This document shows, in pieces, positions 1,000-58,367 of a stretch of DNA of 64,000 nucleotides. A program made the position numbers and the translations under genes. Source of the DNA: Eledone cirrhosa (Eukaryota). The DNA is taken from the NCBI GenBank assembly GCA_964016885.1, contig OZ024743.1, forward strand, positions 309,132,001 to 309,196,000, given 5' to 3'. Each line of letters opens with the position of its first letter. Within the stretch, counting starts at the first letter, position 1. The notes under the pieces were generated by a model that saw only the letters and a list, made by a program, of their open reading frames with translations, made no database searches and was not told the origin of the DNA.

Positions 1000-3360
1000 A
1001 AAAAGGTCTGGTTTATCCACATATGCATACATATACACACACAAATATACAAATATATACACACATACAGACACGCACACACACATATATATATACATAT
1101 ACATATACATATATATACAGACATATATACATATATATATATATACATATACATACATATACATACATACATACACATATATATACATACACAAACATAT
1201 ACGTACACATATACATATATACACACAAAAATACATACACATACACATAGGTATGTGAAGGGCAAAACAAAAAGAATATATGGGGGGGGGGGGGGGGGCT
1301 AAGAGGAGGTAAAAATATAAGGGGAGGTAAGGGAGAAAAAAAATTTTAAATATACAAGAGTACAGAAGGTAGAAGCAGCAAAATAAAAACCGTAGCAAAA
1401 GTAAAGAGCAGAGAAGGAGTTCAAGGCGGTTGATTTATCGTAGGAGTGTCAATCCAGTTACAGATCAGATGCGATTTCAGATGAGGACAGCATCTGAAGA
1501 TCTCAGTCTTAGAGTTAAGGCAAGCGGAAGTGGCTCTCAAGTTTAGCAAAATCCTATACTTTTCTGTGGTACACAAAGAACAATTCTTTGTGCCCCTTTG
1601 GTACTCCCTCGAATGGTCTAATATAGACCAATCAATAGAGTACGGGATATTACTATCCTTGAGATCCCATACCTTACTTGCGAGGGCCCTTGATGTTCGT
1701 TTATCTGAGTGTTTAAAAGAAGCGACATGTGAGTAAAATCTGGTTTTAAACCTGTCCTGGGTCATACCGACATATCGCTCGCTTCTGGCTGGCTGGTTGT
1801 TGATAACTGGCGTTATTTTAGCCTCATAAACGACAGATTTTGTGTTACATTTACCCTGCAATGGGCATTCATCCGGCTTCCTGCAACTGCATCCTGGATT
1901 TATCCTCGTACGGTTTGAACTGGTGATTTTGGACTTCATGGATGGGCAACAAGAGTAGCTGATCTTAACTACATTCCTATTAAAAATCTTATAATATCTA
2001 TGAATAGGAGGGAAATGTTTGTCTAATAGTTCAAGGAATTTCCTTCCTACATTAGTTTTGACATTTAGAGAGAAGGGGGGTGTGAACCAAATAATCTTCC
2101 TTTTCCTGTTATTATGGTTAGTTTTAGGGGGGGGGGGGGAGTAGGTAAATAAGAAATATTTTCTGTAAAACCGCTGTTCTTAAGGGCTTTATTATAATAA
2201 GGGGCGGCTTTATTAAAAATGTCTATAGACGAAGATAAGGTAGAAATCCTACGGCTAATGTTAGGAATAAGATTATTAAAAACTATAGGGGGATGGCAAG
2301 ACTCTTTGTGTATATACCTAAGATTTTCATTAGGTTTATGATAGGGTTTAAAAGAGGCAGTAAGTAGATCAAGATTAATATCAAGAAAGTTAGCATTAGT
2401 AAGGTTCGTATCTATAGTAATTTTAAGGTTAAGATTAGCAAAAGTACTAATTAAATCTTTACGGAATTTATCAAGATTATGGCCATTAGTGGTATGAGAA
2501 ACTGCTAATCCGTCATCACGGTATAAACCGATATTATGGGACGGAAATTTCTCTTTGAGTGTGTGGAGAAGGAATAATCCTACTAAGTCGCACACATCCG
2601 CACTGTCATAAGAACCCATTGCAACATCGAAAGAGTTTTCAGGGTTTGACTTTTTAACCCAAATATTATCATTAGTAAAAAGTAAAGTTTTTCTAGCATG
2701 AAAGATAATGTCCTCTTCTAATTTGGAGATATTAATGAAGGGTCTTGCAAAATCTAAGGCTTTAGTTAATAAGGAAACAGTAATAGAAGGGTAAAAATCG
2801 ACAATATCAAACTGGGTAAATCTACACTTATTTTTACCTTGTATATTATTGAACCAAGAAATAACAGAGGAAGTATTTAGCCACTGTGAAAGGACAGTGT
2901 TAGTTCTAATTTGGAGAATTATTTTTCTTAAGATTTTCTTACTAGCAAGGCCAACCTCGGATTTAGCCGGGTTAATCAGTCTACAACTAGGTCGATTAGT
3001 AAAGTCCAATTTATGGTCTTTAAGGGTAATATATGCTTTACGCTTAGCTAAGCTTTCAATCCGGTTATCTATTTGTAAAGAACTAGCTAGTTCTTTAGCT
3101 TCTTTATTGATAGTATTGTAGCTATTAATATTAGTTAATTGATATTTATTGGTAATACTATTAGTTAAAAGTTGGTTATACAAATTACTATTAACTTCAA
3201 AGAGGTTTTTGGTTTTATCAGAAAGAACGAAAGTGTTTGTGGAATTTCTAAAATTAGAGATATCGTGAGAAAGTTTAGTTTGAAAATTATTATTGTACTT
3301 ACGAAATTTGATATCACTAATTAGATTAACGAGGTCTAATTCGAAGTTGGCCATGTCTTA

Positions 3361-4862: not shown

Positions 4863-4916
4863 TTGAGAAAAAGTTTTAAAATAAATTTCAAAAAGTTCAC
4901 TGTACTTACTATATGT

Positions 4917-4997
4917 GCCTTTACCACGGTTTCCGATCCCAAAATAAACAGATAATCCAAGCAGATTTTCATTGAGAAAGAGATGATCATCAGAGGC
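4917..4997 (-). ncRNA. Type I hammerhead with enlarged stem II (pLTR-like element ~4860-5460, partial tandem)
   Basis: gcct CTGATGA ...long insert... GAAAC CGTG GTA AAGGC; homologous to 57471-57556. Confidence 0.7.
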
Positions 4998-5455
4998 TTT
5001 TCTCACTCGGAGAATATAAAATTCTCGAGTTCAAATCACAAACTGGCGTCATACAAAACTGTTCCCGAATGAGAGTGAATGGGAGAAGAAACAATTTTGT
5101 CTAGTGCCGTGTGTAAAGACAGAAAGCAAGGCGGACAGGTCAATGTCCTGCTACTAAAAATAGCAAACCGTTCAAACGACCAAAAGTTTTCTCAACCTTA
5201 GGGGTGAATAATAATAAAAGTATGTGTTCCTACATGTAAAAAATACATATAGGGATACAAATATTGTCCAACCGTATGCCAGTGTGGTTCTATGGCAGGT
5301 TAATAAATTAACAAGCCAGAACATATAAAATCAAGGTCTAGCAAATAGAAAAAAAGTTTTAATATAAATTTCAAAAAGTTCACTGTACTTACTATATGTG
5401 CCTTTACCGCGGTTTCCGATCCCAAAATAAACAGATAATCCAAGCGGATTTCCAT

Positions 5456-5583
<128 letters not shown>

Positions 5584-13210: not shown

Positions 13211-13972
13211 CCCCACCACCACCCCACTCTCAAGAACGTGAAATTAATAAACATTCGTTGTACTGCCTCTCTGTTTTGTTCCTGTTCAAATTTTCCATTA
13301 TATATTTATATATATATATATATATAAAACACACCGTATTTATATATATATATATATAAAACACACCGTATATATATATATATATATATAAATGAAAAGT
13401 ATAGAAATTGATGTGAGCATGAAGCTAACAGTATTTCATAAATGTATATATATATATATATATATATATAGTTAAAAGAATAGAGGTGTAACACACAAGT
13501 TATTATATATTGGTAAACGGAATAGAAAATGCTGACAAATTGTTCACAGTTGAAAAATGGTTTAATTAGGAATAAAAGAGTATTAGTGATTGTATGGGTT
13601 AGTATTCAGTTGTGGTTTTAAGTTTTTAAGTTTTTACCGGTTGCGCATTTCTAAATGCTTTTCAAAAATAATTTTGAGATAGAGTGTCCGTGCTGTTTGC
13701 TCTGATCTGATTAGTTTTGGGAATTCTACCTGTTTTTATGTTAAAAAAGTGGCTCCAATTTGCAAAAATTCTTGTGGTCAAAACAATTTTGATTGGTCGG
13801 TAGAGGTCATGTGAATGTAAAAAATTGATTTTGCGCCAAGACTGTTTTTATGTTAAAAAAGTGGCTCCAGCAAAAATTCTTGTGGTCAAAACAATTTTGA
13901 TTGGTCGGTAGAGGTCATGTGAATAAAAAATTGGTTTTGCGCCAAGATTGAGAAATGACTCTTTCACAACAA

Positions 13973-14719: not shown

Positions 14720-15937
14720 TCTTAGGGAGAAGTGTTTAGACGGGGTCCGTATTTGTTAATGAAGTAAGATTCCTTGCTGATCCGCTGGGTGTGGGTGGCA
14801 TTATCTTTAAATTTGTAGAGGGGAAAGATTCTGAAGTTGGGATGATTTTGGGCGGCACAGGTATCAATGTGTTCACTCAGTGGTATTTTCCTGTATTCCC
14901 GTATTTTGATTTGGGATCTATGGACAGTCAATAATTGAAATGGAATCCAACGTGCCCTAAAACTCAGTACCCAGGACCTTAGACACCCTAAAGTAAATCA
15001 ACCAAAACTAAAAGCTCTTCCATACATCTCCACACACAACCCCTCAACAATGAGGCCTTTGACACCATCCTCCAGAACATCCCTGTATTGAAAAAGGACC
15101 ATAGAATGAACCAAATTCTACGAACACATGATATCATAAAGAGCAAAAGACAATCCAAGTCAATGAAAAACATCTTAACACATGCCAAAGTACTGCCAAC
15201 CACAACAACGAAACCCACAGTAAAAAAATGTGATAGACCCAACTGTGGCATTTGCATCAACCTAATAGAGGGTTCGGAATTTTATTTCAAAGATGGACAA
15301 CGTTTTATAGTAAAACACAATTTCACATGTGCATCGGAAAATCTAATATATGTATTAACTTGTTCAGGTTGTCGAGAACAATACATAGGGGCAAGACCCA
15401 AAACAGCCTCCGCCAACGCATGACCGTCCATAGATCCCAAATCAAAATAGGTGTAAGTGCACTAAATCCCTTTCTATCAATCTCCCCTCTCCTACCGAGC
15501 ACAGGAAGATATATGTATGTATATTGCTTCCACCCCCTCACTGACCAGCAGCTGGCCATCTGGCCATTGCTAAATTTGACCTTTATAAAATAACCCACAC
15601 CCCCAAATAACTTCTCATTCACTACCAGAAGCAGTCAACGAGCTGCTACCAAGATGAAAACTACTATGAAATCCCACAATGAATTTTATACTTGAATTTT
15701 CAAATCTCAAATTTTAACTCTTCTTATTATTAATTTTTCTTAATATTAATCAACATTTGAAAAGATGGCTTTTGCAGACCCATCGAAACCGGTCATTTTT
15801 TATACCCTTTATTATTTCCTTACCTTATAAAATTATATGTTTTTTCACAAAAAAGTATTCTGTCTCTTATATATTCCATGTGCCATTACCAACCACAATT
15901 TTCTCTATAACCTTCGTTTTGTGTAGTAAATTACACT

Positions 15938-15940
<3 letters not shown>
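14720..15940 (+). mobile_element. Rearranged Penelope-like GIY-YIG fragment with inverted piece (14720-14930)
   Basis: CxxC..NLIYVLTCSGCREQYIG in ORF 15088-15423; inverted continuation MTVHRSQI..KESYFI. Confidence 0.8.
15753..15798 (+). ncRNA. Hammerhead with U3:A8 core (UUGAAAA)
   Basis: acat TTGAAAA gatgg-cttttgcagac-ccatc GAAAC CG GTC attt; stem I weak. Confidence 0.6.
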
Positions 15941-15991
<51 letters not shown>

Positions 15992-26762: not shown

Positions 26763-29700
26763 GATTACAATAATCAAAGTTCAGTTTAAATCATTTATTT
26801 GCTTACAATTGTTTCCTCCGAACCGAGGTTTGGATTCTTTGGAGCAACTATTTAGTGATCTATAACATACTTGACCTCCTTTTCAACACAAGAGACATAT
26901 AAAAACATATGCACATATTGATCCACAGTGGGATGACATCCATCAAAATGATATAGCATGGCAATTTACATATAAAGGTTAAAGGATAAAGATAAAAATG
27001 AAGCATTGGCAGTCTATGAAGATAAAGCAAGAGGAAAGTTTAGAGTAGTCAGTGTATGAAACAATCTCACGTGTAGCATGCACGCGTGTCTTATTTATAC
27101 AGGATTAGAGTGCGTCAGAATGTTACTTGCAGGGTCAGGCAGTTGAAGCAGGCAATCGATATTATTATGTGGGCTGAATTATTAAATCATTTTTTCGCAT
27201 ACACCTGTATGATATACAATCCCGAATGTGGAGAAACACCAAAATATCAAAAATATCAAACATATTATAAAACATATTATATGGTAGGCAAAACAGTACC
27301 ACTGTCTTCGCGCACACCACCACTCACATAATCCATGAGACGCAATATATAGACCACGGGTCTATCATATAATTCACGATGGTTCGGCATATAACCAAGT
27401 TATAAACCGTATCTTGTCGATTCTTAATTAATCATGTTGTTTAGTTTTGTGTGATGATACTATATTCCGGAAGTGTGTGTATGACCAAGGGGAGTTAATG
27501 CGTAAGGGGAGGTAACTAGCTGGTTTTCTTAGTTAAATTTATTATCCTAAATTGCATTAATGGTGTTTCAAATAAGTGCCTATCATATGATGTTATAACT
27601 AATTTCTAGATTATGTTACTTATCTATAGGTTACAGTGTTGTCTATTAAGAAGTACTAAAGGTGTATATATCAGGATGATTACCTTCTATTAAGGGGTGT
27701 CATATCTGAACATTCTATAAGAAGAGTCAGACCCCCAAATCAATGTTCTATGTAAGTGTAATTCCTCCCGCAGGACCTGGCATGGTCCTATTATTTTATA
27801 TGTGACTCCCGGTAAGCTCTGGGTCATTGTATGTCTGAATCCTTGGTAAATCTGAATATCTCCAGGGTGGTCTGGAGTTCAAATCTCCCATATAAAGACA
27901 CCAGTCTGGCCACCAAGCAATACATAAACTCCTATCTCATATATAAATTAAATTAGGTATCTTATCTACAAATTAGAGTGGAGTCTATTAATAAGTACTA
28001 AAGGAGTTCATATCATGATTATTACAATCTGGAGATCAAATCTCCTATATAAAGACACCAGTCTGGCCACCAAGCAATACATAAACTCCTATCTCATATA
28101 TAAATTAAATTAGGTATCTTATCTACAAATTAGAGTGGAGTCTATTAATAAGTACTAAAGGAGTTCATATCATGAAGATTACAATCTGGAGATCAAATCT
28201 CCTATATAAAGACACCAGTCTGGCCACCAAGCAATACATAAACTCTCATCTCATATATAAATTAAATTAGGTATCTTATCTACAAATTAGAGTGGAGTCT
28301 ATTAATAAGTACTAAAGGGGTTCATATCCTGATGATTACAATCTAATATGGAGTGCCACAACTGGACAATCCATAAGAAGAGTCGGACTACAAAATTAAT
28401 TATAAGGGTCTCACTACTAATAAGGGTCTTATTACTAATAATGGTCTTATTATCATACAGGACTCCCGGCAAGTTTCGGGTCATTGTATGACTGCATTCA
28501 CGGTAAGTTCACCAGGGTGGTCCGGGGACCCGTTCTCTCATCAAAAGATACTAGTCAGGTCATCAAGCAACACAGAGACTCCTAACTGATGTATCACCTG
28601 TGCATAATTCATTGTACTGATCGTATAGAATATATAGTCACATAATAATAAGATTACTTACTTAGTCATCAATCTAGCTCATGGTGGCACTCCATGCACA
28701 GGACTATGTTAGCACAACCAATACCGTGTCTACAGTTTATATTAATCATATATTTGTGCAATGCAGTTTAAGTAATCCACGGCCGAGATATCAGAATTAG
28801 AAGTACATGGGGGTATCCCCAGGGTAGATGGTTCTATAATGCTGCCAGTATTACCTTTAGAGTATATAAATGGGTGTGGAGGTGAGGTGTAAGGTGTGCT
28901 ACTGATGCTAATTGCTAGTGGTGGTGACGGTTCCAGTCTGACATTGTTATATATAGGGTTTAAAGTTTTGGAAAGAGTGTCGGAAGCGGTGTTGGCAAGA
29001 TCCGAACACTTCTGATTTTTTATTAAGGAGATTATGGTTAGAGAAGATGATAGTATGGGTCTCTAGTAGACAGAGGTTACAAAATTTATTAGGTTGAGTC
29101 CTGTATGATAATAAGACCATTATTAGTAATAAGACCCTTATTAGTAGTGAGACCCTTATAATTAATTTTGTAGTCCGACTCTTCTTATGGATTGTCCAGT
29201 TGTGGCACTCCATATTAGATTGTAATCATCAGGATATGAACCCCTTTAGTACTTATTAATAGACTCCACTCTAATTTGTAGATAAGATACCTAATTTAAT
29301 TTATATATGAGATGAGAGTTTATGTATTGCTTGGTGGCCAGACTGGTGTCTTTATATAGGAGATTTGATCTCCAGATTGTAATCTTCATGATATGAACTC
29401 CTTTAGTACTTATTAATAGACTCCACTCTAATTTGTAGATAAGATACCTAATTTAATTTATATATGAGATAGGAGTTTATGTATTGCTTGGTGGCCAGAC
29501 TGGTGTCTTTATATAGGAGATTTGATCTCCAGATTGTAATAATCATGATATGAACTCCTTTAGTACTTATTAATAGACTCCACTCTAATTTGTAGATAAG
29601 ATACCTAATTTAATTTATATATGAGATAGGAGTTTATGTATTGCTTGGTGGCCAGACTGGTGTCTTTATATGGGAGATTTGATCTCCAGACCACCCTGGA

Positions 29701-30798
29701 GATATTCAGATTTACCAAGGATTCAGACATACAATGACCCAGAGCTTACCGGGAGTCACATATAAAATAATAGGACCATGCCAGGTCCTGCGGGAGGAAT
29801 TACACTTACATAGAACATTGATTTGGGGGTCTGACTCTTCTTATAGAATGTTCAGATATGACACCCCTTAATAGAAGGTAATCATCCTGATATATACACC
29901 TTTAGTACTTCTTAATAGACAACACTGTAACCTATAGATAAGTAACATAATCTAGAAATTAGTTATAACATCATATGATAGGCACTTATTTGAAACACCA
30001 TTAATGCAATTTAGGATAATAAATTTAACTAAGAAAACCAGCTAGTTACCTCCCCTTACGCATTAACTCCCCTTGGTCATACACACACTTCCGGAATATA
30101 GTATCATCACACAAAACTAAACAACATGATTAATTAAGAATCGACAAGATACGGTTTATAACTTGGTTATATGCCGAACCATCGTGAATTATATGATAGA
30201 CCCGTGGTCTATATATTGCGTCTCATGGATTATGTGAGTGGTGGTGTGCGCGAAGACAGTGGTACTGTTTTGCCTACCATATAATATGTTTTATAATATG
30301 TTTGATATTTTTGATATTTTGGTGTTTCTCCACATTCGGGATTGTATATCATACAGGTGTATGCGAAAAAATGATTTAATAATTCAGCCCACATAATAAT
30401 ATCGATTGCCTGCTTCAACTGCCTGACCCTGCAAGTAACATTCTGACGCACTCTAATCCTGTATAAATAAGACACGCGTGCATGCTACACGTGAGATTGT
30501 TTCATACACTGACTACTCTAAACTTTCCTCTTGCTTTATCTTCATAGACTGCCAATGCTTCATTTTTATCTTTATCCTTTAACCTTTATATGTAAATTGC
30601 CATGCTATATCATTTTGATGGATGTCATCCCACTGTGGATCAATATGTGCATATGTTTTTATATGTCTCTTGTGTTGAAAAGGAGGTCAAGTATGTTATA
30701 GATCACTAAATAGTTGCTCCAAAGAATCCAAACCTCGGTTCGGAGGAAACAATTGTAAGCAAATAAATGATTTAAACTGAACTTTGATTATTGTAATC
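26763..30798. repeat. 4-kb inverted repeat (two 1703-bp near-identical arms, 630-bp spacer) from a Penelope-like tail
   Basis: Arms 26763-28465 and 29096-30798; spacer holds GIY-YIG C-terminus NKFCNLCLLE (28947-29095, -); each arm has three 157-bp tandem units. Confidence 0.92.
30714..30762 (+). ncRNA. Variant hammerhead (CCAAAGA core); mirror copy 26799-26847 (-)
   Basis: ttgct CCAAAGA a tccaaacc-tc-ggttcgga g GAAAC AATT GTA agcaa ATAAA. Confidence 0.6.
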
Positions 30799-32886: not shown

Positions 32887-32934
32887 CGCACACACACACG
32901 CACACACACACACATATATATATATAAGCAAATA

Positions 32935-33500
32935 TTAGAGAGGAAAAAGAGTTTTTCAGTAGAAAATGCAGAAGAGATTCTTTCAGTATAATATCAAAAC
33001 ATTTATTTATAAAGTGGATATTACGCATTTAATAATACCGGTTTCAGAATTATATGCTTTTTAAACTGCGGATTTGCAAAATGTAGTTATGTTGCATATT
33101 TATACGAATAATAAAAATAAAAAGGTGAAGAAAAATGATTAGTTTTTACATACACATTTAGAGAGAAAACTTCATATTTCTGTCCGTCTTTGTCCTTCTT
33201 TCTCTGACAGTCAGCCAACTAACAGAGAAGGAAGGACAAACACGGTTAGAGATATGAACTTTCCTCTCTAAACATGTACTGTATGTAAAAACTAATAATT
33301 TTTCTCTCCCTTTATTTTTATTATAAATATGCAACATAGCTACATTATGCATATCCGCAGTTGAAAAGGCATATAATGCTGAAACCGGTATTATTAAATG
33401 CGAAAATATCCACTTTATAAATAAATAAATAAATGTTTTGATATTATACTGATAGAATCTCTTCAGCCTTTTCTACTGAAAAAATCTTTTTTCTCTTTAC
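32935..33500. repeat. ~560-bp imperfect rod-like hairpin with U3:A8 hammerhead at 33357-33394 (+) and a degenerate mirror copy
   Basis: gcag TTGAAAA ggcat-ata-atgct GAAAC CG GTA ttat; arms complementary to a centre near 33210. Confidence 0.75.
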
Positions 33501-33555
33501 TATTTATTTTTATATATATCAACTCGTGTGTTATTTTCCCACATTACACACACAC

Positions 33556-37769: not shown

Positions 37770-40620
37770 GAGAGTATTGAAGTTTGCTTGAAGCATTGTG
37801 GAACAATAAGTAAATATTTATAAGTCGTTTGGAAGCCTCGACAATGCAAATGGGTAAATCTCCGGGTAACAAGGTCCGCTGGTGGAGAGAGAGATATGTA
37901 AGTGGGTGTACGTTGAGATGCGTGGTGTGTATAAGATGTGTGAGATGTGTAGAATGAAGAGAAGAGTAAAAGAATAAAAATAATAATAACAACACAAGAG
38001 AGAGAGTTACCTTGGGAGAGATTTAATAGTCCCTATATATTTCGGATTCACATCCATCAACTGGGGTTTTTTCCGGGGTGGGGGAAAAGGTTGTCTGTCG
38101 GACAACTCGGAACGCGTCTTTCGCTGTCTGTTGATTTGAATATCTGAGGTATTCGGCCGAGCGCGCGTGCGCATGAAATGGGGCGGTCGTACAGAGGTCA
38201 GCGGCCGAATGAGGGAGTGGGATGGCGCTAGCTGTCAGTCCATTCTCTGCCTGTTTGTTAAATGTTACTGTGTGTGTGTGTGTGCGTGTGTTGTTGTCTC
38301 GCTTGAGTGTGTGTGTGTGTGTGTGTGCGTGTGTTGTTGCCTTGTTCATCTGCATTGGCAGTGTAGTATGTTCGTATGGTGGAATGCTACTGTGTGTGTG
38401 TGTGCGTGTGTGTGTGTGTGTAGTTGTCTCGTTTGCGTGTGTGTGCGTGTGTTGTGTGTTGTTGCATCGCTTGTTAACTTAGATACAACCTCCTCACGAG
38501 GAACAGCAGACTACCCGCCTTCTACCACCTCGTGAAAACACACAAACAGGGACCCGACCTGAAAATCAGGCCCATCGTATCGAGCGTGGAGGGACCACTC
38601 TACAAAATTTCATGGCTCCTAGCCAGAATACTCAAACCCATCTTAGACACCTTGCCGGGACACGTTAACAGCTCCGAGGAGGTGTTGAAGCGCCTGCATC
38701 AAATGGATCCCGACACCAGAAAGAATAACAGATATGCCTTCAGCCTTGATGTAGTCGCTCTCTACACCTCGGTCCCGGCACTCCCGGCCGTCAATATACT
38801 AATGGAACGCGTTCAATCCACCGACCTACACTGCTTCGGGCTCACCACTACTGACAGCCACCAACTCCTATCCATCGTCGTCGACAACACCTACTTCGGA
38901 TTCCTTGACCAAATATACCAACAAACCTCGGGATTGCCCATGGGATCAAGTCTATCAGGTGTGCTAGCGATCTCCTACATGGACAACCTCGAACGAAAGG
39001 CTCTCAACGCCTGCCACCCCAACGCCGTAGCCTTTTTCTCAAGATACGTGGACGATATCCTCATCCTCACATCTTCCCAAGACACGGCGAACAGAATCTA
39101 TGAGACGTTCAACAACACGGACGAGAACATTGACTTCAGTGTTGAACACCCAACGAAGACGGGTCACTTGCCCTCCTCGACTTCCGAATCAACATCACGG
39201 AACAAGGAGGGATCCACTGCAACTTCTACAGAAAGGCAGCCTACAGGGACCTATTCGTTCACTACAAGTCCGCCCTCCCTAACAGTGTCAAAAGAGGATA
39301 CATCACGAACGAGATCGCGCGAATCAAAAACAGATGCAGCGATCCCGCCAGTGGTGTCACTCATACCAAGCGATTCCTCGAGGTGCTGGAGACGAACGGG
39401 TACCCTACCTCGATCACAGACAGAATAGGAGACACCAGACGCAAGAGACAGAGACGCACCAAGGCAAGTGCTTCCTTAAAATGCCACACCTGGGCGAGAA
39501 AACCACCAACGCTATCCGCAAGGCTATACGGAGGGAGGGCCTCGACATCCACCTGGCCCACTCGGGCCCCTCCCTGCGAAGATGCCTCTCCAGAAAACCC
39601 GAAAAATCTACTGACGCATGCTCCCTCAGACACTGCCCGATACACCATGCTAACTGTTGCCTACGCACATACGTCGTGTATAAGATAGAATGTGACAGGT
39701 GCAACCAATACTACATAGGTAGCACAATTCGACCTTTGCACATCCGGATCAAGGAACACATTAAAACCAGGGCCTCGTCTTTCCGGAAACACATAGACAA
39801 ATGCGGAAACAAAGACGGAAGGCCCATTGTCACAATTCTAGCGACTGAAAGAAACGTCGGCACGTTACGTATTAAGGAAGCGCTTCTTATCAAACAACTG
39901 CAACCGCAAATAAACAACCGATTAGAGAGAAGCGAAATGAAATGGCTGGTTTAAGTTAACAAGCGATGCAACAACACACAACACACGCACACACACACAC
40001 ACGCAAACGAGACAACTACACACACACACACACGCACACACACACACAGTAGCATTCCACCATACGAACATACTACACTGCCAATACAGATGAACAAGGC
40101 AACAACACACGCACACACACACACACTCAAGCGAGACAACAACACACGCACACACACACACACAGTAACATTTAACAAACAGGCAGAGAATGGACTGACA
40201 GCTAGCGCCATCCCCATCCCACTCCCTCATTCGGCCGCTGACCTCTGTACGACCGCCCCATTTCACGCGCACGCGCGCTCGGCCGAATACCTCAGATATT
40301 CAAATCAACAGACAGCGAAAGACGCGTTCCGAGTTGTCCGACAGACAACCTTTTCCCCCACCCCGGAAAAAACCCCAGTTGATGGATGTGAATCCGAAAT
40401 ATATAGGGACTATTAAATCTCTCCCAATGTAACTCTCTCTCTTGTGTTGTTATTATTATTTTTATTCTTTTACTCTTCCCTTCATTCTACACATCTCACA
40501 CATCTTATACACACCACGCATCTCAACGTACACTCACTTACATATCTCTCTCTCCACCACCGGACCTTGTTACCCGGAGATTTACCCATTTGCATTGTCG
40601 AGGCTTCCAAACGACTTATA
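37770..40620 (+). mobile_element. Penelope-like element (5'-truncated) between ~660-bp inverted pLTRs
   Basis: RT ORF 38532-39428 (RPIVS, SLDVVALYTSVP, GLPMGS, RYVDD), GIY-YIG 39334-39954 (VVYKIEC..YYIGST..EALLI); arms ~37819-38481 and 39952-40619. Confidence 0.92.
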
Positions 40621-44937: not shown

Positions 44938-45084
44938 GGCAAGTAAGTATGTTTTGAAACAGTGAGCGAGTTTGAAATTAGAAAATATATAGCTTTCACC
45001 GTATTTTTGACTAAAGGAATTTTAGCTTGATAAAGGGGTTTAGAACCCTCAGATGAATGGAAAAAGATGAGTATTGACGTACAT

Positions 45085-45156
45085 GGGAGTCGAACCCACA
45101 TCTGTGGTTATCGCGACCACTGTGCTACCATTACACCAACACATCATCCATCTCTT
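45085..45156 (-). other. tRNA-like cloverleaf (SINE head or pseudo-tRNA) inside an inverted-repeat element 44937-45335
   Basis: GATGTGT TG GTGT-AATGGTA-GCAC A GTGGT-CGCGATA-ACCAC AGAT GTGGG-TTCGACT-CCCAT GTACGTC; wobble-rich acceptor stem and G33. Confidence 0.65.
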
Positions 45157-45335
45157 TCCATTCAAATTAGAAACTACATTCTTAGCGAGGGTTCTAAACC
45201 CCGTTATCAAGCTAAAATTCCTTTAGTCAAAAATACGGTGAAAGCTATATATTTTCTAATTTCAAACTCGCTCACTGTTTCAAAACATACTTACTTGCCA
45301 TTTAAACTCGCTAAGAATGTAGTTTCTAATTTGAA

Positions 45336-48300
45336 TTAGTGTCTGTCCTTAGGGCATCAACATACGTTAACCTTGGTCTTCCTCTTCTAGTGTGTCCATG
45401 TAGGGGCCCCCAAAGGAGCACTGAGTGCATTGTCAACTCTGGATGTCGGTGAGCATGTCCAGCTAACCCCAGTCTCCTCTGTGTCACTTTTGAGCTGACT
45501 TTTGGGATGCTCCCATACAGCTCTGAGTTGTTCATCCTCAGTGTATACTGATTAATGTTCAGAGCCATCCTCAGCAGTCTCGTGTAGCACCCATCCACCA
45601 TCTGAGTGAGTTTCTTGGTCAGTGTCCATGTCTCAGACCCATACAGCAGCACAGACTCCACTACAGCAATGAAGAGGCGGATTTTCAGGTCTCTACGAAG
45701 GTCCGACTTCCACACCGATCTCAAGCTGTGGCACGCCGCCCAGGCCTTGCTCTTCCTCTCAACCACACCATCTTCCGTATTCCCAATCTTTGCTCCCAAA
45801 TACAGGAAGTCCTCAACCAATTCCAGCGGCTTCCCGCCTACATTAGTGATCCCCTCTGGCTTCTCAACATTCTCTACCAGATATTTTGTTTTAGTCTCGT
45901 TCATTCTCAGCCCCACACTCATCGACAGAGTCTCAACCTCCCGCATCAAATCCTCTGCCTCCTTCACTGTGTTTGTCACCAAAACTATGTCGTCGGCAAA
46001 TTCAGCATCCGATACCTTTTTCGCCTTAACTCTCCTGCTCTGAGCCGGTGCTACAGTAAAGGCAGAGTCCTGGTGTTTCTCCAGTGCAAGGCGCATACAA
46101 TAGTCCACTACGATGATAAAAAGGTAGCGAGCCAATGTATCTCCCTGGAGCACTCCAGCCAGTATCTCAAAGAACTCTGTCATCCCATCAGGTGTAATGA
46201 CTTGGGCTTTGGTGTTGGTGTAGAGCAGTGATATCAGGTCCACTATCTTCTTGGGGATTCCATAAGCCTGTAAGATCTTCATCAGGCAGTGACGGTCCAC
46301 AGAATCAAAGGCCTTCCTAAAGTCAATGAAAACCATGACTGCAGGAAGGCACTTTCTAATATCCTCCTCAGCATCAGGATGTGACTGGTGGTTGATCTAC
46401 ACTCTCTGAAGCCGTTCTGGTTGTCCCTGAGCTTCTTCTCCATCTCAGGCTGGATCCTGTTAAGAATCATCCTGTTGAGGGTCTTTGCCACAAGTGACGT
46501 CAGTGAGATCCCCCTGAAGTTGTTGGTGTTAGAGAGATCTCCCTTCTTTGGCACTGAGACGATGTTACTGATCCTCCACTGATTCGGGGCAACTCCTTTC
46601 TCCAGTGCCCCGTTACAGAACCCCAGGATGATATCAAAATCACACGTCTTCATCACCTCTGATGCCACTCCATCTTCTCCATGAGCCTTGCCCTCCTTGA
46701 TCCTCTTCTTGGCACTCTGAAGCTCCTCTCTGGTGAAGGGCTCTGTCTCAACATCCAGTTCCTCAAACAGCTGCCTGATCTCCCCAATGCTCTGGGCTGT
46801 GGAGGGTGGCTCTCCTAGTAGGGTCCTAAAATGGTCTAGCCATTTCCTCTTCCTATCCTCGGGCCCCGTTCCCTGGATCTGACTCGAACACCTTCTCTTC
46901 CTCCCTGTGATCTCGCTGATGATCCTCCAGCTCTCCTTACATCCAGATCTGTCAATCGCTCTCTCCACACTTCTGATCTTCTCTATCAGTGCCTCCTCTC
47001 TGACCTCAGTGTAAGCGGTACAGAACTCTTCCCTCATCACCTCCACATTCTCCATCCTCTCCTCTGTAGGATCAGCATAGAATTGGTCCCTGGCAGCTTT
47101 CATGTGTTCTCTTGCTGCACACACTTTTGGGTTTGCAGAGCTGACGTGCTTACCTTTGTTCCTTTTCCTCGGTACCAGGGTTTCACTTGCTTCCGCCACT
47201 GCATTGGCGAAGTGCCCGTACCTCCTCGTCACACTCTCCTCACTCCACCCAATCTCTCTCTCCTCTGACTCTCCACACAGTGCACTAAACCAGTTTCTCA
47301 CTTCCACTGTGAACCTCTCCTGTAGCTTATCATCTTCCTTGAAAGCTCCCCAGTCATAGATTGCTCTCCGGGGCCGAGCCTTGCTCTTTCTTAAGCTCAC
47401 CCGGACCTCACTCATAACAAGTCGGTGGTCACCACCCAGTGTACTGAAATAGCTGTATGGTTCCGTGTTCAGAACACTATTCCGCCACTTTTTCCTCATC
47501 AGAATGAAATCAATCTGGGACTTGGACAGGTGCATATCTGAGATGTAGGTCCACATCTTCCCCAGATTCTTCCTAAACCTTAGGTTGGTCGCCATTAAGT
47601 TCGCCTCCAGCAGGGTGTCTCTCAGTAGTCTTCCATTTCGGTTGGTGTTGTTATGGAAGTACCAGCAAGGATCATCACTGCCCTCCTTACTCAGATGTGC
47701 ATTGAAGTCCCCCAAAACAAGCAGGATATTGTGTGCCTGAGTGGTGTTGACAGATCTACACACCTCCTCATGGAACTCTTCCGCACTCACATCACTGTCC
47801 CTCTCGGTTGGACTATAGGCTGAGATGACTGTCAGTCTTGGGTTTCCATTGAAGGTTACCCTCAACACTCGCGGGGAGATAGGCATTATTTCCCTCACCA
47901 ACAGATTGGTTTTTACACTGAACACAAAACCCACTCCTCCTACTGCAGCATTTGTTGTGTTCTTCACTGCCGATGTAGTGATGAGCTGGCTCTTCCTCCC
48001 GATCATCACACTCCTCACGGGCTCATCGTGTAGGATCCTGTGTTCTTGGATCGCAAGTATCTATATACCACTCTCCTCGAACAGATGTCCCAACTCCTCT
48101 CTCTTCTCCAGCGTCCGAATAGTCCTCACATTCGAAGTGCCCATTTTGATGGCTCTTCTGCAGGACAAAACTGCATTCTTTATATTTGTCTCAGAGACAG
48201 CTGATCCATCATCCACTGGCTCTCTCTGTGGCTCTAAGGCAGCAGAGTCATAACAGCCAGGCTGCTCCTTGACAGTGTAATTAGGGGCTCTAACCCTAGT

Positions 48301-48535
48301 GCTGTTAGATCGACTCTCCATATTTCTTTTCAATGGCTGACAATACCTTACCGGCGTCACTCGAATAAGGTAGTTATTTAACCCATAAATGGAGCCCTAA
48401 CAGGTACTACCACCCCGGGCCAGGGCAGACCTGGGAGTCATGACAACTAAGGGGTAACTTCACATTCCCCACATCTCCTGAACTCCCGAACTGGAGCCTT
48501 GCCACTGGATGTAATTTAATGTCATACCCAGGACA
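45336..48535 (-). mobile_element. Near-full-length RTE-clade LINE (APE + RT), few frameshifts
   Basis: GTSNVRT, GVGF, SAYSPT, GDFNA, QIDFI, GDH (APE); NFRGISL, QNGFR, FIDFRKAFDSV, GVLQGD, FADD, FLYLG, LLYGSETW, RGRP (RT); 5' leader tgtcctgggtatgac. Confidence 0.92.
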
Positions 48536-49510
48536 TATATATATAGAGAGATATCAAATATATATATATCAAATCATCCTAGAATTAATTATAATAATAA
48601 TAAACAATTTAACTTAAACACTAAACCAAACAAAAAAACTCGAACTAGAAATATTATTTGGTACTCTCCCCCATTCTCATTAAGCGTTAAAACACCTTTA
48701 GCAAAGCTATTCTTTAAAGCACTCTATAAATGTTTTCCTAAAGCCCACAGATACCACTCTATTTTTAACAGACACACTATAAAACTATCCTACTCTACTA
48801 CTATGAACATAGCACAAAATATAAATAGAATTAATAATAGAAACTTAAATTTAAACCCTAACCAAAATAACAATAATAATGTTTCTAACAACAATATTCA
48901 GAATAATAGTACCGTTCCGAACAACACCAACTCCAGAAAATGTAACTGTAGAATCAAATCAAACTGCCCTTTACAAAATAATTGTTTAGACAAAAACGTA
49001 GTTTATAAATGCACAGTTAAAACTAGAGACAAAATATTTAACTATATTGGTGCCACTTCAACAAAATTCAAAGAACGCTGGAATAACCATAAACACACAT
49101 TTAAGAGATCCGATAAAAAATCTTCTACTTCACTTTTACATCTAATTTGGAACTTAAAAAACAACAATATCGACTATTCAATATCTTGGAGAACGATTTC
49201 GAAAGCACCTGCATACCGAAATATGGCTTTCTCAAGATTCTGTAACTTGTGTATCGAAGAAATTTTTTATATAATTAACTGTCAAAACTCTATTAATCTT
49301 AGAACAGAATTATTTTCTTCTTGCAGACATCGCAAAAATTCCACGTTCAGAACTATTTTTAATTTATAATATTCCTATACACCTTCAAAATGATCCTATC
49401 TTCTTTAAAAATGTAAATTTAAAAATTTTTAAATATTTTTAATATTTTTAATATTTTTAATATTTCTATTTTTTTTTTATATTTCTAATATTTTTACATT
49501 TTGACATTAA

Positions 49511-51856: not shown

Positions 51857-52619
51857 AAATATGGTTTTATAAATATAGTTTCCATTTATTTAATATCATT
51901 GTATATATATATATACACCCACCGCCTTCATTCCGTCCACCTCTCTTAACCCTTTCTTATCTCACCACACAGATCGCTTTATAAACACATACCTTTTACC
52001 AGGACCATTATATTATACACAATTTCTTTCCCACCTGTTTATTTTATTTTATTTTATTCATACCCTCCCCCATTTCCTATCACACTTTTAACACAAACAC
52101 ACCCAAGATACACGAAAATTTCATGTTATTAAAGAATAATGCTAATGTTAAAATCTAAGGAGAATAAAATTTTACTATAAATATCAATCTTATTTAAAAT
52201 CTAAGGAATATAGATCTATAAAAAGAAATTAAATTAATTTAATTGATAGGTATATTTATAGGGATACATTTATATTAATTCATATAGATATAATAAATAA
52301 GAGTTAGATGTTATTAAAGAATGTTGTTAAAAACGAAGAAAAACATTTTTTTTTTGGGGGGGGGATAAATGTAATAGTGAGAAATAACAAACTTATATAG
52401 ATTATAAGGAATTTAGATACATAACAGGAAATTAGAATAGTTTATATGTATACTTATTGGTATAAATTTTAGGAAAAGATAGCTGTAAAAGGGAAATAAA
52501 ATTATGCAGTTCTTAGTAGTAGAATATTAATTATAGGTTAACTAATTTAAAATAATTAATTATAATAATTTGTAAAATATAAGTGTATATTAATTAGGTT
52601 TATAATATTTAAAAGTTTT

Positions 52620-55140
52620 TTCTAATTCTATGATTGCATGATATAATTAATTCTTGTCGCTTATTTAATAGGATATCCTTAGATTTCATTATTTCAAAAA
52701 GTTCCTGGGAACATAATCTACATTCATATCTATTATTTTGATAAGGGGTGGCCCTTTTGAGTACACTCCAGGTCAAGTTATAATCGATATTCTTTTTTCT
52801 ATAATTATTAATTATTTCAGCTAAGGATGTTGTATTAGCTAATGCGGCATTTTTAAAACTGTGTTTGTGGGTATTAAATCTTACTTTAAATTGGTTAGAA
52901 GTAGCTCCTATATATGAATAAATTGAGTCCTTAGTGCTAATTTTACATTTATATACTATGTTATTAATAAGGCAATTTCCTTTTAATGGGCAATTTCCTT
53001 TTAATGGGCAATTTACTTTGTTAGTTACAACCTTTCGTGAATGTTATATCAGGGGAGTTAGTCAAATTAGGTGTGGAATTTTCTCGACTTGTTGTATGTG
53101 AATGAGATGGTGGTTTGCTGTGGTTTATTTTAGTATTATGGTTAGTTTGATGTGTTGGTGGTATATTCATGTTTTTTTTTACATTTATATGCATTGTAGG
53201 CACTTATATTTTGTTGTATATTTTTGGTTGTTGAGTAGGAGAATTTGACCGTTGATCTATTTAAAATTTGATGGTATTTATGGTTTGGCGGGAAGTTTTT
53301 CTCTAGGATAGTAAACATTTTTTTAGCTATATTATCTTTAATTTGTAGATTAAATGGACCATTATACCAAGTAACTCGTCTATTACGGTTTCGATGTTGT
53401 TTTTTTTTATTATTATACGATGTATCCTGATGTTTACTAAGAATTAGTATTAGTGATTTTATTACACATATTTTTAGTTAGATCCACTGATTTAGGTGTT
53501 TTAGCCTGATTATTAGGAATTTTGTTAGTAATGTTATTAACATATATTGGAATATTAGGATGAATGGGTTTTTGAAAGTTATTATATTGTATATTAGAAG
53601 AGGTAGAGAAATTAAGTTTTAAGTTGGTATTTTGGGGTATAGTGTGAGTGGCATTTAGGTGTGTGTATTTCATTTGGTGTTTGTTGGTAATATTGGGTTG
53701 TATATTTGTAGTATTATTGGTATAAGGTATATATACTAATTTGTTTTTGTGGCTGCTTCTAGCTAAAGCTTCGTTATAAAAGGTCGCATTTTTATCAAAT
53801 ACATCCTGGTTAGACGAAAAGTTAGAAATTCTGAGTGAGATATTATATGCTAGGTTTTTAAGGATAGATTTAGGGTGATTAGATTTTGAGTGTATGTAAT
53901 GTAAGTTTTGGTTAGGTTTATGGTAAGGTTGGTAGATACCCGTAGATAAGTCTAAAATTATATCAAGGAAATTAACTACTTTACTTGTGTTTTCAAATGT
54001 AATAGTGAGACTATAATAGTCTTTGAGGAAAGTTGTAATAAGTTTTTTGTTTTTCAATTTCTGATAGGCTAAGGTTAGTGGAAAGAAGAAGACAGTCATC
54101 ACGATATAAACCACCTTTAAGGTGAGGGAAAAGAAGCATTTATGTTAAATAGAAGAAAGATCGGTAATTTGGGCAGAATCGCTACAGCCCATAGTAATGT
54201 CGAATAGATTACTATATGTATTTCTGGTCCAGTATTCCTTCTGAAATTCCAGTAGTGTTTGTCTAGTGTGCGTGATAATAGTAATGTCATCCATAGTTAA
54301 GTTTGATCTATTTTTGGCAAATATCAAGGCTTTGTTCAGGAGTATGGGTGATATACATGGATAATAAGCATCTATATCGAATTGTAGAAATGAAGCAAAT
54401 GATTTATCACTAATACTAGTAAACCAGTTAATTACCTGGGATGTGTTTTCCCAGAGTGGTAAATTAACATGTTTTCTTAATTGTGGGATGACTCTATCTA
54501 AAAATCTTTTACTAATGATGCCAATGTCAGATTTGGAAGGGCATATAAGTCTTATAGAAGGATTAGAGTTAAAATTAGATTTGTGATCTTTCAGGTTAAA
54601 ATGTGGTTTTTTCAGTGCCAAAGGTTCAGTTCTAGCTTCAATATTGAGTTTACTTACTATGTTGTGTGTTTTGTTGTTGATATTGGTAAGTGCCGCATTA
54701 TTTTTTTTTTTTATAATTATTCCTGAGTTCTTTATAAATGAACTCATTGTAATTATCAATATCCATGTGGTACAGATTTCCAGTTTTGTCAGAGTGGACA
54801 TGGATTTTGTTAGATTCTTTTAGTTCCAATAGGGTAGAATCAAGATCCTTTTGAAAATTAGATTTATATTTCTCAAATTTGAGGTGTTTGATTAAGTTAA
54901 AAAGGTCTTTCTCGAAGTTTTCAAGCAAGGAGTTGTGTGGTGGGTTCTTATATGTAGTAAAATCATATAAATATTTTTTATCTGTACATTTTGTTTTTTT
55001 ATCAAAATGGTAGGCCCTCCATCTGACCCTTTTGATGAATTGGTTGGTTTTTCGTATCATAAGAAGTAAGAATTCATCCTTAGAGGGTATTGGTATATTC
55101 TTTAAAGAAGTTCCCAAGTATTATTTTTCCATTGTGATAA
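52620..55140 (-). mobile_element. Full-ORF-span decayed Penelope-like element
   Basis: N-terminus SLKNIPIPS..RVRWRA, RT FDIDAYYP, MG, YRDD, NFLDI; GIY-YIG (VYKC..YIGATSN) at ~52620-53030; frameshifted. Confidence 0.88.
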
Positions 55141-55160: not shown

Positions 55161-55228
<68 letters not shown>

Positions 55229-55296
55229 GTGAGTATTTTTTCACAAAATGAAAAATAACCGAGGTGTCCTACACGAGTGAAAGTATAAAGAAAAAA

Positions 55297-55842
<546 letters not shown>

Positions 55843-57333: not shown

Positions 57334-57470
57334 TATATATATATGCATATTGAGGTGTCGGTAAACAACTAACATATACTCAATATATATATATATATAT
57401 AATCAAGGTTTAGCAAATAAGAAAAAGTTTTAAAATAAATTTTAAAAAATTCACTGTACCTGCTATGTTT

Positions 57471-57556
57471 ACCTTTACCGTACGGTTTCGACGCTCAAAA
57501 ATAAATGGATAGTCCTTGCGGGCCTCCATTGAAAAGAAAAACTCTCGTCAGAAGGT
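57471..57556 (-). ncRNA. Type I hammerhead with enlarged stem II
   Basis: acctt CTGACGA ga...tc GAAAC CGTACG GTA aaggt. Confidence 0.8.
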
Positions 57557-57868
57557 TATTTTCACTCGGAGAATATAAAATTCCCGAGTTCGAATTACGA
57601 ACTGGCGCTATTTAAAATTGTTCCCGAGATGAGAATGAATAATGTGGAAGCAATTCTGCCCAGTGCCGTGTGCAAAGATAGAAGGCCTGAGGCGGAGAGG
57701 TCAATCTACTACCACTATAAATAGCAGCAGTCAAAACGAACAAAATGTTATCTCTTTTATATATATATGTTTCTCGACCGTTATATTGCGTGACTATCTC
57801 CCCCTCCGCCTTTTGGGATTCTTTCTCAAGTCGTGTAGACGCGTTCTTGAGACTAGTAAAATGAGGTA

Positions 57869-57958
57869 TCCTCTTGATAAGTCGGCAGACCTCGCAGGGA
57901 CTCTATATCTTTATGATGTATTGTTTTTGTTTATGCCACGAAACTACGTAGTCGAGGA
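57869..57958 (+). ncRNA. Type I hammerhead with U3:A8 core (UUGAUAA)
   Basis: tcctc TTGATAA gt-cggca...tgcc-ac GAAAC TACGTA GTC gagga. Confidence 0.82.
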
Positions 57959-58367
57959 ATCTAGGAGCAGTTTAGGTATGATACATTTTATTACTAATTA
58001 TATCTAAATGTTTCTTCTCTCTTCATAATGTAATTTAACTCTGATACTGGTTCAGTCTAGTTCAACCGGATTGGTCTGTCCCAGTCATTCATTGAGCAAC
58101 ATCGGTGAGGTTGGCACCCTTAACTCACGGTTGGGTGTGGATGCATTCATGTATATGTGTGTGTCCGCATGTATCTGTGTGTTTCTAAATATATTATATA
58201 TATATATATGGAGATGTGTGTATATGTATATATATATGTGTATATTTATGGGTACGTCTTTCTGCATGTGTGTGTGCGTGTGTGCGCATCTGTGAGTGTA
58301 GGAACGCATGTATATGTGTGTGTTTGTATTTGCATGTAGGCGCACATATACATATGTGTGATTGTGT

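What the first reader, a model, noticed from the sequence alone, without database searches (positions are those of the whole stretch)
57869..57958. Recurrent U3:A8 covariant hammerhead cores (UUGANAA) in several unrelated element families
Seen: complete type I folds with TTGATAA/TTGAAAA in place of CTGANGA at 57869 (best case: 5-bp stem I, palindromic stem III, GUC), 15753, 33357 and three copies at 55360-55776. Established: C3-G8 is a tertiary Watson-Crick pair in the active HHR, and the U3-A8 swap is a known but uncommon natural variant. Inference: its repeated use in unrelated flanking sequences suggests selection for activity; CUGANGA-based searches would miss these motifs.
Basis: partly seen in the sequence, partly recalled or inferred. 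Interest (0 to 1): 0.75.

Follow-up and report, generated by a model that had tools for sequence, protein, structure and literature searches.

The report
Swapped-pair hammerheads in Penelope-type repeats
These are real copies of a predicted self-cutting RNA motif with an already published swap in its core, carried by thousands of copies of a non-coding jumping repeat and by sister Penelope-type retrotransposons in this animal genome, one of which has also changed a normally fixed core base yet still spread, so whether cutting is needed at all becomes testable.

Summary
The motifs are real. Five of six cited U3·A8 cores pass a hammerhead descriptor (0 in 100 shuffles); the sixth has G17. In 800 kb of blind genome sample: C3·G8 60, U3·A8 15 (2 spurious), mismatched states at background. 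U3·A8 is published as a natural variant, including about 1,300 hits in Schistosoma Penelope-like elements (PLEs).

The 57869 motif lies in a non-coding 593-nt tandem retrozyme-like element (5,838 exact cores) inserted in (TA)n. Units within an array are 1.1% apart versus 3.8% between arrays, and 30 of 30 two-armed insertions pair two fixed ends. This suggests rolling-circle copying by a borrowed PLE enzyme.

The families are not all unrelated. The 15757 and 55xxx motifs are terminal repeats of sister Neptune/Nematis-type PLEs (57% protein identity), so they likely share one origin. Selection keeps the fold and the 3·8 pair; cleavage is untested.

This scan found the 593-nt element and the swap before on other DNA of this genome. 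New member of a known kind.

The parts
57864..57963 (+). Type I hammerhead of the 593-nt element (R593): stem I, U3·A8 core 57874-57880, long loop II, GAAA, 10-nt palindromic stem III, predicted cut after C17 (57953)
57768..58032 (+). 5'-truncated R593 unit (monomer positions 329-593), preceded by a TA repeat; ends at fixed end 1
   Evidence: L001
58034..58195 (+). R593 tail (monomer positions 3-164) ending at fixed end 2 in (TA)n; this insertion is one-armed and has a single hammerhead
15447..15948 (+). pLTR of PLE family N1 (99.8% to the pLTR of L151, which has an unbroken 1138-codon RT/GIY-YIG frame); U3·A8 core at 15757; it cuts off the ORF of family N3
55216..55810 (.). Three inverted pLTR pieces of PLE family N2: cores 55392(-), 55444(+, G17), 55773(-)
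33210..33519 (+). Older (~88% identity) family F33, U3·A8 core at 33361, weak proximal stem I; no linked ORF found
32914..33206 (-). Inverted second arm of F33 with a decayed core (G5 lost)
14939..15446 (+). 3' part of the N3 ORF (Cys linker and start of GIY-YIG), ~57% identical to N1
57410..57730 (-). Neighbouring canonical C3·G8 tandem element (~490-nt unit, core 57551); homology to R593 not supported

Best explanation
The motifs are type I hammerheads with the known U3·A8 core, inherited within a few retroelement lineages (shown), and at 57869 the motif likely cuts, as a dimer, tandem transcripts of a non-coding 593-nt element into monomers that would circularise and be copied into TA repeats by a borrowed Penelope-type enzyme. 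Steps: (1) multi-unit arrays are transcribed (inferred; no RNA data). (2) Two palindromic stems III pair and the nascent RNA is cut after C17 (predicted). (3) The monomer is ligated into a strongly self-paired circle in which stems I and III are sequestered (fold predicted). (4) A PLE RT/GIY-YIG protein nicks (TA)n and primes at two fixed sites on the template, running through the cut site for up to several rounds (fixed ends, arrays and TA flanks shown; enzyme and circle inferred). In the sister PLE families N1-N3 the U3·A8 core sits in the pLTR and was likely inherited from one ancestor; cleavage there is probably slow or protein-assisted and may be dispensable. The swap likely recurs because it needs only two transitions through a U·G wobble.
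For: Descriptor counts vs shuffles. R593: 5,838 exact cores, 10 with a non-U at position 3 and none of those C3·G8; 593-nt tandem units, longest stop-free frame 134 codons. Over 65 loci: 1.12% within arrays (115 pairs) vs 3.75% between (8,506 pairs); 55 locus-private variants lie in all units of an array (25 from one locus), 9 in some units, 181 in one unit. 30 of 30 complete two-armed insertions pair end 593 with end 161-171. Circle z -4.9 vs 60 shuffles, stems I/III unformed, palindrome self-duplex -12.9 kcal/mol. Inherited variants at 0 of 25 sites in the 3' half of the ribozyme vs 40 of 193 nearby sites, p 0.006. Stem II sequences differ among N1, N2, N3, F33 yet stay paired; the R319 family has compensated stem I and two different palindromes. 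Literature: U3-A8 natural, and reported active in vitro (PMC3088659); retrozyme circles (PMC7229834); two internal RT starts (PMC11167929).
Against: No cleavage assay and no RNA evidence here. In a full double-mutant scan of a type III hammerhead only the G·C swap rescued this pair; all other mutants in that region were low (PMC9901934). In an anole PLE, cleavage was not needed for insertion in vitro (PMC11167929). N3 spread to 6,347 copies with A13C. The conservation test drops to p 0.08 without locus L202. Array homogeneity could also come from homogeneous source arrays or repeated template jumps. No autonomous partner of R593 was found. R593 is longer than the 170-400 nt circles of PMC7229834.
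Confidence: 0.68

Rival explanations
1. The fold is selected as a structural or protein-binding element (dimerisation, RT loading) and U3·A8 cores cleave little or not at all; arrays come from uncleaved multimers or template jumping.
For: A13C fixed in a young family of 6,347 copies (98 of the first 100 listed); 2-3 bp stems I in N1, N3, F33; every insertion runs through the cut site; PMC9901934 and PMC11167929.
Against: The 3·8 pair stays Watson-Crick in all six families examined while mismatched states are rare; R593 and R319 have good stems and an intact core; array-wide private variants imply a single-monomer template.
Confidence: 0.22
2. U3·A8 arose separately in each family because it is functionally favoured over C3·G8 here.
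Against: N1, N2, N3 are sisters; C3·G8 outnumbers U3·A8 about 4:1; G3·C8, the swap that rescues in PMC9901934, was not seen (0 in 800 kb), which fits mutational ease better than advantage.
Confidence: 0.07
3. The motifs are chance matches in AT-rich DNA, multiplied by transposition.
For: UUGANAA is AT-rich; a loose unstructured pattern gave 22,160 hits against 18,941 for its control; local fold z only -1.65.
Against: Structured descriptor 15 vs 0.33; same pLTR position in three sister PLEs; compensatory changes in stems I and II.
Confidence: 0.03

Closest known systems
Metazoan non-LTR retrozymes (Cervera and de la Pena 2020, PMC7229834; Li, Clavereau and Pollet 2026, 10.64898/2026.07.22.740005)
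   Same: Non-coding tandem units with one type I hammerhead each, dispersed monomers to multimers, self-paired predicted circle, palindromic helix III, coexistence with PLEs.
   Different: U3·A8 core; 593-nt unit (170-400 nt in the 2020 paper, 51-972 bp in the 2026 preprint); 58-nt stem-loop II; (TA)n targeting that hides target duplications; two fixed 3' ends paired in inverted insertions.
Hammerheads of PLE pLTRs, including the U3-A8 variant of Schistosoma mansoni Cercyon elements (Cervera and de la Pena 2014, PMC4209133)
   Same: Same core covariation (about 1,300 hits there), short helix I, palindromic helix III, position in both pLTRs, mostly solo or inverted copies.
   Different: Here in PLEs with a CX4CxxC linker; one sister family adds A13C, which I did not find in the parts read or in searches.
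Natural core variants of hammerheads (Perreault et al. 2011, PMC3088659, section 8)
   Same: Reports C3-G8 covarying to U3-A8 in several natural examples.
   Different: Rare there; about a fifth of descriptor hits here. A13C is not among the variants named in that section's text (the figure was not seen).
Poseidon PAc of Anolis (Frangieh et al. 2024, PMC11167929)
   Same: Two internal RT start sites giving a tail, AT-rich targets, hammerhead upstream.
   Different: PAc tail is 30-40 bp, R593 tail about 165 nt; R593 has no ORF; PAc core is C3-G8.

Membership tests
Type I hammerhead ribozyme (57869) | Three helices around the core, open ends in stem I | tested here: met
Type I hammerhead ribozyme (57869) | Conserved core with a Watson-Crick 3·8 pair, G10.1-C11.1, A15.1-U16.1, H17 | tested here: met
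   U3·A8, G-C, A-U, C17; family-wide
Type I hammerhead ribozyme (57869) | Site-specific self-cleavage | not testable with these tools
   needs an in vitro assay
Type I hammerhead ribozyme (57869) | Loop 1-loop 2 tertiary contact | not tested
   stem I has a bulge and loop II is long; no contact was modelled
Type I hammerhead ribozyme (N3, 13665) | Invariant G12-A13-A14 box | tested here: not met
   C13 in 98 of the first 100 of 6,347 matches; 25 copies of a shorter-stem subfamily have A13
Non-LTR retrozyme (R593) | Tandem units, one type I hammerhead per unit | tested here: met
   (up to 8 cores in L154)
Non-LTR retrozyme (R593) | No protein-coding capacity | tested here: met
   longest stop-free frame 134 codons; no PLE protein hit within the element
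Non-LTR retrozyme (R593) | Highly self-paired monomer | tested here: met
   circular fold z -4.9
Non-LTR retrozyme (R593) | Accumulates as circular RNA | not testable with these tools
   no RNA holder listed
Non-LTR retrozyme (R593) | Large target-site duplications when present | tested here: inconclusive
   both flanks are TA repeats
EN+ Penelope-like element (N1, N2, N3) | RT plus C-terminal GIY-YIG with CCHH, between direct pLTRs | tested here: met
   L151 1138-codon frame, RVT_1 E 1e-6 (just under the curated cut-off); GIY..YIG and CCHH read by eye, no Pfam GIY-YIG hit; 480-540-nt direct repeats
Neptune/Nematis-type PLE (N1, N2, N3) | CX2-5CxxC linker between RT and EN | tested here: met
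   present in all three; feature from PMC8557442
Neptune clade specifically | Placement on an RT tree with reference elements | not tested
   no reference sequences on hand
PLE pLTR (F33, 33361) | Flanks an RT-EN ORF | tested here: inconclusive
   no shared ORF in 20 loci; one nearby ORF remnant is not linked

The most novel reading that the evidence does not exclude
U3·A8 is a permissive background on which the hammerhead core keeps evolving: a young PLE family with U3·A8 plus A13C (about 6,300 copies) is either a new active natural core or proof that a PLE can flourish with a catalytically dead hammerhead, while its sisters keep GAAA. Three sister elements thus form a natural experiment on whether PLE hammerheads must cleave. 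Alongside, R593 arrays record rolling-circle reverse transcription of single RNA circles, some of them A-to-I edited, primed from both target strands at two fixed sites.
Probability: 0.3. Interest if true: 0.62.

Novelty: new member of a known kind. Interest (0 to 1): 0.33.

Why it matters
The swap itself is published, so it matters modestly. About a fifth of this genome's hammerhead-like motifs would be missed by CUGANGA descriptors, which affects censuses and claims that some PLE clades lack ribozymes. Two open questions become testable. First, whether PLE hammerheads need to cleave: three sisters differ in the core (GAAA, GAAA, GCAA) and the counted N2 and N3 families both exceed 6,000 copies. 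Second, how retrozymes are reinserted: array-wide private variants and strictly paired ends give specific predictions for a circle-templated, two-start mechanism.

Tried and rejected
Rfam scans found no hammerhead, canonical or variant. Repeat finding on the window was swamped by microsatellites. A loose genome-wide pattern was no better than its control, though it gave the lead to R319. Search for an autonomous partner of R593 by its stem III with a shorter loop II gave 14 hits, by their listed sequences mostly deleted R593 copies or chance. Homology of R593 to the canonical 57551 family: pairwise z 3.7 but no profile hit, so rejected. F33 direct pair at 5 kb (L153) was a segmental duplication. 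The PLE-like ORF at 52609-55120 is not the owner of the 55xxx motifs. A canonical core near one N3 copy (L248) was a separate insertion. Expression: no RNA holder listed. Contigs of four runs of unknown kind cover the unit and join end to start; a 621-nt cyclic contig in X5 fits a circle or a tandem DNA array equally, so it was not used. Pile-up of 5' ends at the cut site could not be judged because loci were chosen by the ribozyme region. One fetched region held no R593 segment (L197); duplicates L011, L025, L027 and the duplicated locus L159 were dropped. Lunse et al. on PLE hammerhead variants was not available and may bear on U3·A8 and A13C; one of the supplement files of PMC4209133 could not be searched; bioRxiv supplements were not seen.

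Full report
Setting. The window lies in a 3.0-Gb animal genome, rich in microsatellites and PLE remnants. The repeat content looks octopus-like from recall; this was not established. Family labels below are mine.

Observation. At 57869-57958 the sequence gives stem I TCCTC/GAGGA, core TTGATAA, a bulged 6-bp stem II, GAAA, the palindrome ACTACGTAGT and C17. The local minimum-energy fold has this three-way shape with an extended stem I, but its energy is not exceptional (z -1.65). Five of the six cited cores pass a relaxed descriptor, with 0 in each of 100 shuffles; 55444 fails on G17, a base that slows but does not abolish cleavage in tertiary-stabilised hammerheads (PMC3884650, passages). In 80 evenly spaced 10-kb stretches a strict descriptor found C3·G8 40 and U3·A8 12, a relaxed one 60 and 15, with U3·G8 0, C3·A8 1, G3·C8 0 and a shuffle mean of 0.33. 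Two U3·A8 hits in each count are spurious (AT tandem repeat, L085). So only the two paired states occur in number.

The 57869 element (R593). A 27-nt pattern with positions 3 and 8 free has 5,838 exact matches and 0 for its control; 99 of the first 100 are U3·A8, one U3·G8. Ten matches have another base at 3, all with A8. Copies are 593-nt tandem units without a long ORF, 5'-truncated, often inverted, flanked by TA repeats. The window copy covers monomer positions 329-593 plus 3-164 and has one ribozyme. Of 65 loci, 33 are one-armed (21 end at 593, 12 at 161-171), 30 of 30 complete two-armed insertions have one end of each kind, one is cut by the locus edge and one is complex (the lead came from e1-8814041). 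Two fixed ends match the two internal RT starts behind the PLE tail (PMC11167929, parts 1-2 of 4 read). Units in one array differ by 1.12% against 3.75% between arrays; of locus-private variants, 55 are in all covering units (25 from L202), 9 in some, 181 in one. L154 has five private changes in all 7-8 units on both strands. This is what repeated passes over one monomer would leave; 'private' is relative to 65 of roughly 3,000 loci, so rare subfamilies can mimic it. The circular monomer folds far better than shuffles (z -4.9) and hides stems I and III; the palindrome can pair between molecules. Inherited variants avoid the 3' half of the ribozyme (0 of 25 sites vs 40 of 193 nearby, p 0.006, in 30 loci not chosen on that region; p 0.08 without L202), while one-unit mutations do hit it.

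The other families. 15757 (N1) lies in a 500-nt stretch 99.8% identical to the pLTR of L151, which has an unbroken 1138-codon RT/GIY-YIG frame between two such repeats. The 55xxx motifs (N2; 6,177 exact matches, 100 of 100 listed U3·A8) are pLTR pieces of L191-type elements. A third family (N3), whose ORF end lies at 14939-15446, has a pLTR alignable to N2 (z 10.3). The three proteins are 56-58% identical and share the Cys linker that PMC8557442 (passages) gives for Neptune and Nematis. All carry UUGAAAA and the CCGG palindrome with different but paired stems II. F33 (33361) has the same build, is older, and has 39 U3·A8, 2 C3·A8 and 1 A3·A8 among 42 exact matches; no ORF was tied to it. Outside the window a 319-nt tandem family (R319; 751 matches, 100 of 100 listed U3·A8) shows compensated stem I and two palindromes. 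R593 and R319 could not be aligned convincingly to the PLE pLTRs or to each other. The minimum is therefore one PLE lineage plus one or two retrozyme lineages.

A13C. N3 has GCAA in place of GAAA: 6,347 exact matches, C13 in 98 of the first 100, 3 of 3 in the blind sample and one at 13665 in the window. A shorter-stem subfamily has 25 copies with A13. That A13 is near-invariant is from the consensus quoted in PMC7151607 (one passage) and recall. Searches found no paper on a natural A13C hammerhead, and two look-ups in earlier notes found no mention, but the most relevant paper (Lunse et al., seen only as a reference in PMC6765202) was not available.

What is known. Perreault et al. (PMC3088659, abstract and section 8) report natural U3-A8 and cite in vitro activity. 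Cervera and de la Pena 2014 (PMC4209133, parts 1-2 of 4 and a supplement search) report about 1,300 U3-A8 hits in Schistosoma PLEs and low activity of PLE hammerheads even as dimers. Retrozymes: PMC7229834 (parts 2-3 of 6) and 10.64898/2026.07.22.740005 (parts 1-2 of 5). Against easy activity: in a full double-mutant scan only the G·C swap rescued this pair (PMC9901934, passages), and PAc insertion did not need cleavage (PMC11167929). Searches (listings) and a term search in PMC13282606 showed no description of cephalopod retrozymes. Earlier notes of this scan describe R593, R319 and UUGAAAA pLTR motifs on other DNA of this genome.

Verdict. Real, well above chance, a known variant in known kinds of element. 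The cross-family argument for repeated independent selection is weaker than stated, since several families are sisters and mutational ease (two transitions) explains why U3·A8 and not G3·C8 recurs (inference). The fold and the pair are conserved; cleavage is predicted. The most useful additions are the A13C sister family and the array evidence for a single-monomer template. Interest 0.33.

Noticed in passing
window 13633-13758 (-); L269, L088, L076: PLE family N3 has a U3·A8 core with A13C (GCAA) in about 6,300 copies, and only a 3-bp A-U stem I.
   Followed up: partly
R593 arrays, e.g. L167, L154: Template-inherited variants lean to sense-strand A>G over T>C (24:15 by recount; one search ran 24:16, p about 0.005) unlike one-unit variants (6:19); L167's three private array-wide changes are all A>G. 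A hint of A-to-I editing of the RNA template; polarity of shared variants is uncertain.
   Followed up: partly
L217-L231, L039, L277, L281: R319, a second U3·A8 tandem family (~319-nt unit, 751 exact matches) with compensated stem I and alternative palindromes.
   Followed up: partly
window 57410-57730 (-), 4866-5165, 5329-5459: Canonical C3·G8 tandem family (~490-nt unit) back to back with R593; shares a 10-nt loop II word with it, but a profile test found no homology.
   Followed up: yes
window 3751, 10332, 42217, 50734, 51805, 56754, 59965: Further canonical C3·G8 type I hammerhead folds; none is reported by Rfam.
   Followed up: no
L083, L089 (310-nt period); L068, L071 (466-nt period): Canonical-core tandem retrozyme-like arrays in the blind sample (11 units in L083).
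   Followed up: no
window 26763-30798: A 1,703-nt perfect inverted repeat with internal 157-nt tandem units, 630 nt between the arms.
   Followed up: no
window 1421-3357, 38478-39954, 48515-49369, 52609-55120; 45326-48060: Several other PLE-like ORF remnants and a long LINE-type RT/endonuclease remnant (family names from recall, not tested beyond).
   Followed up: no
window 45075-45145 (-): tRNA-like match above the Rfam cut-off, just beyond the end of the LINE remnant; possibly a SINE head.
   Followed up: no
window 63066 (+): A hammerhead-like fold with an A3/A8 core, long stem II and palindromic stem III; probably a decayed copy.
   Followed up: no
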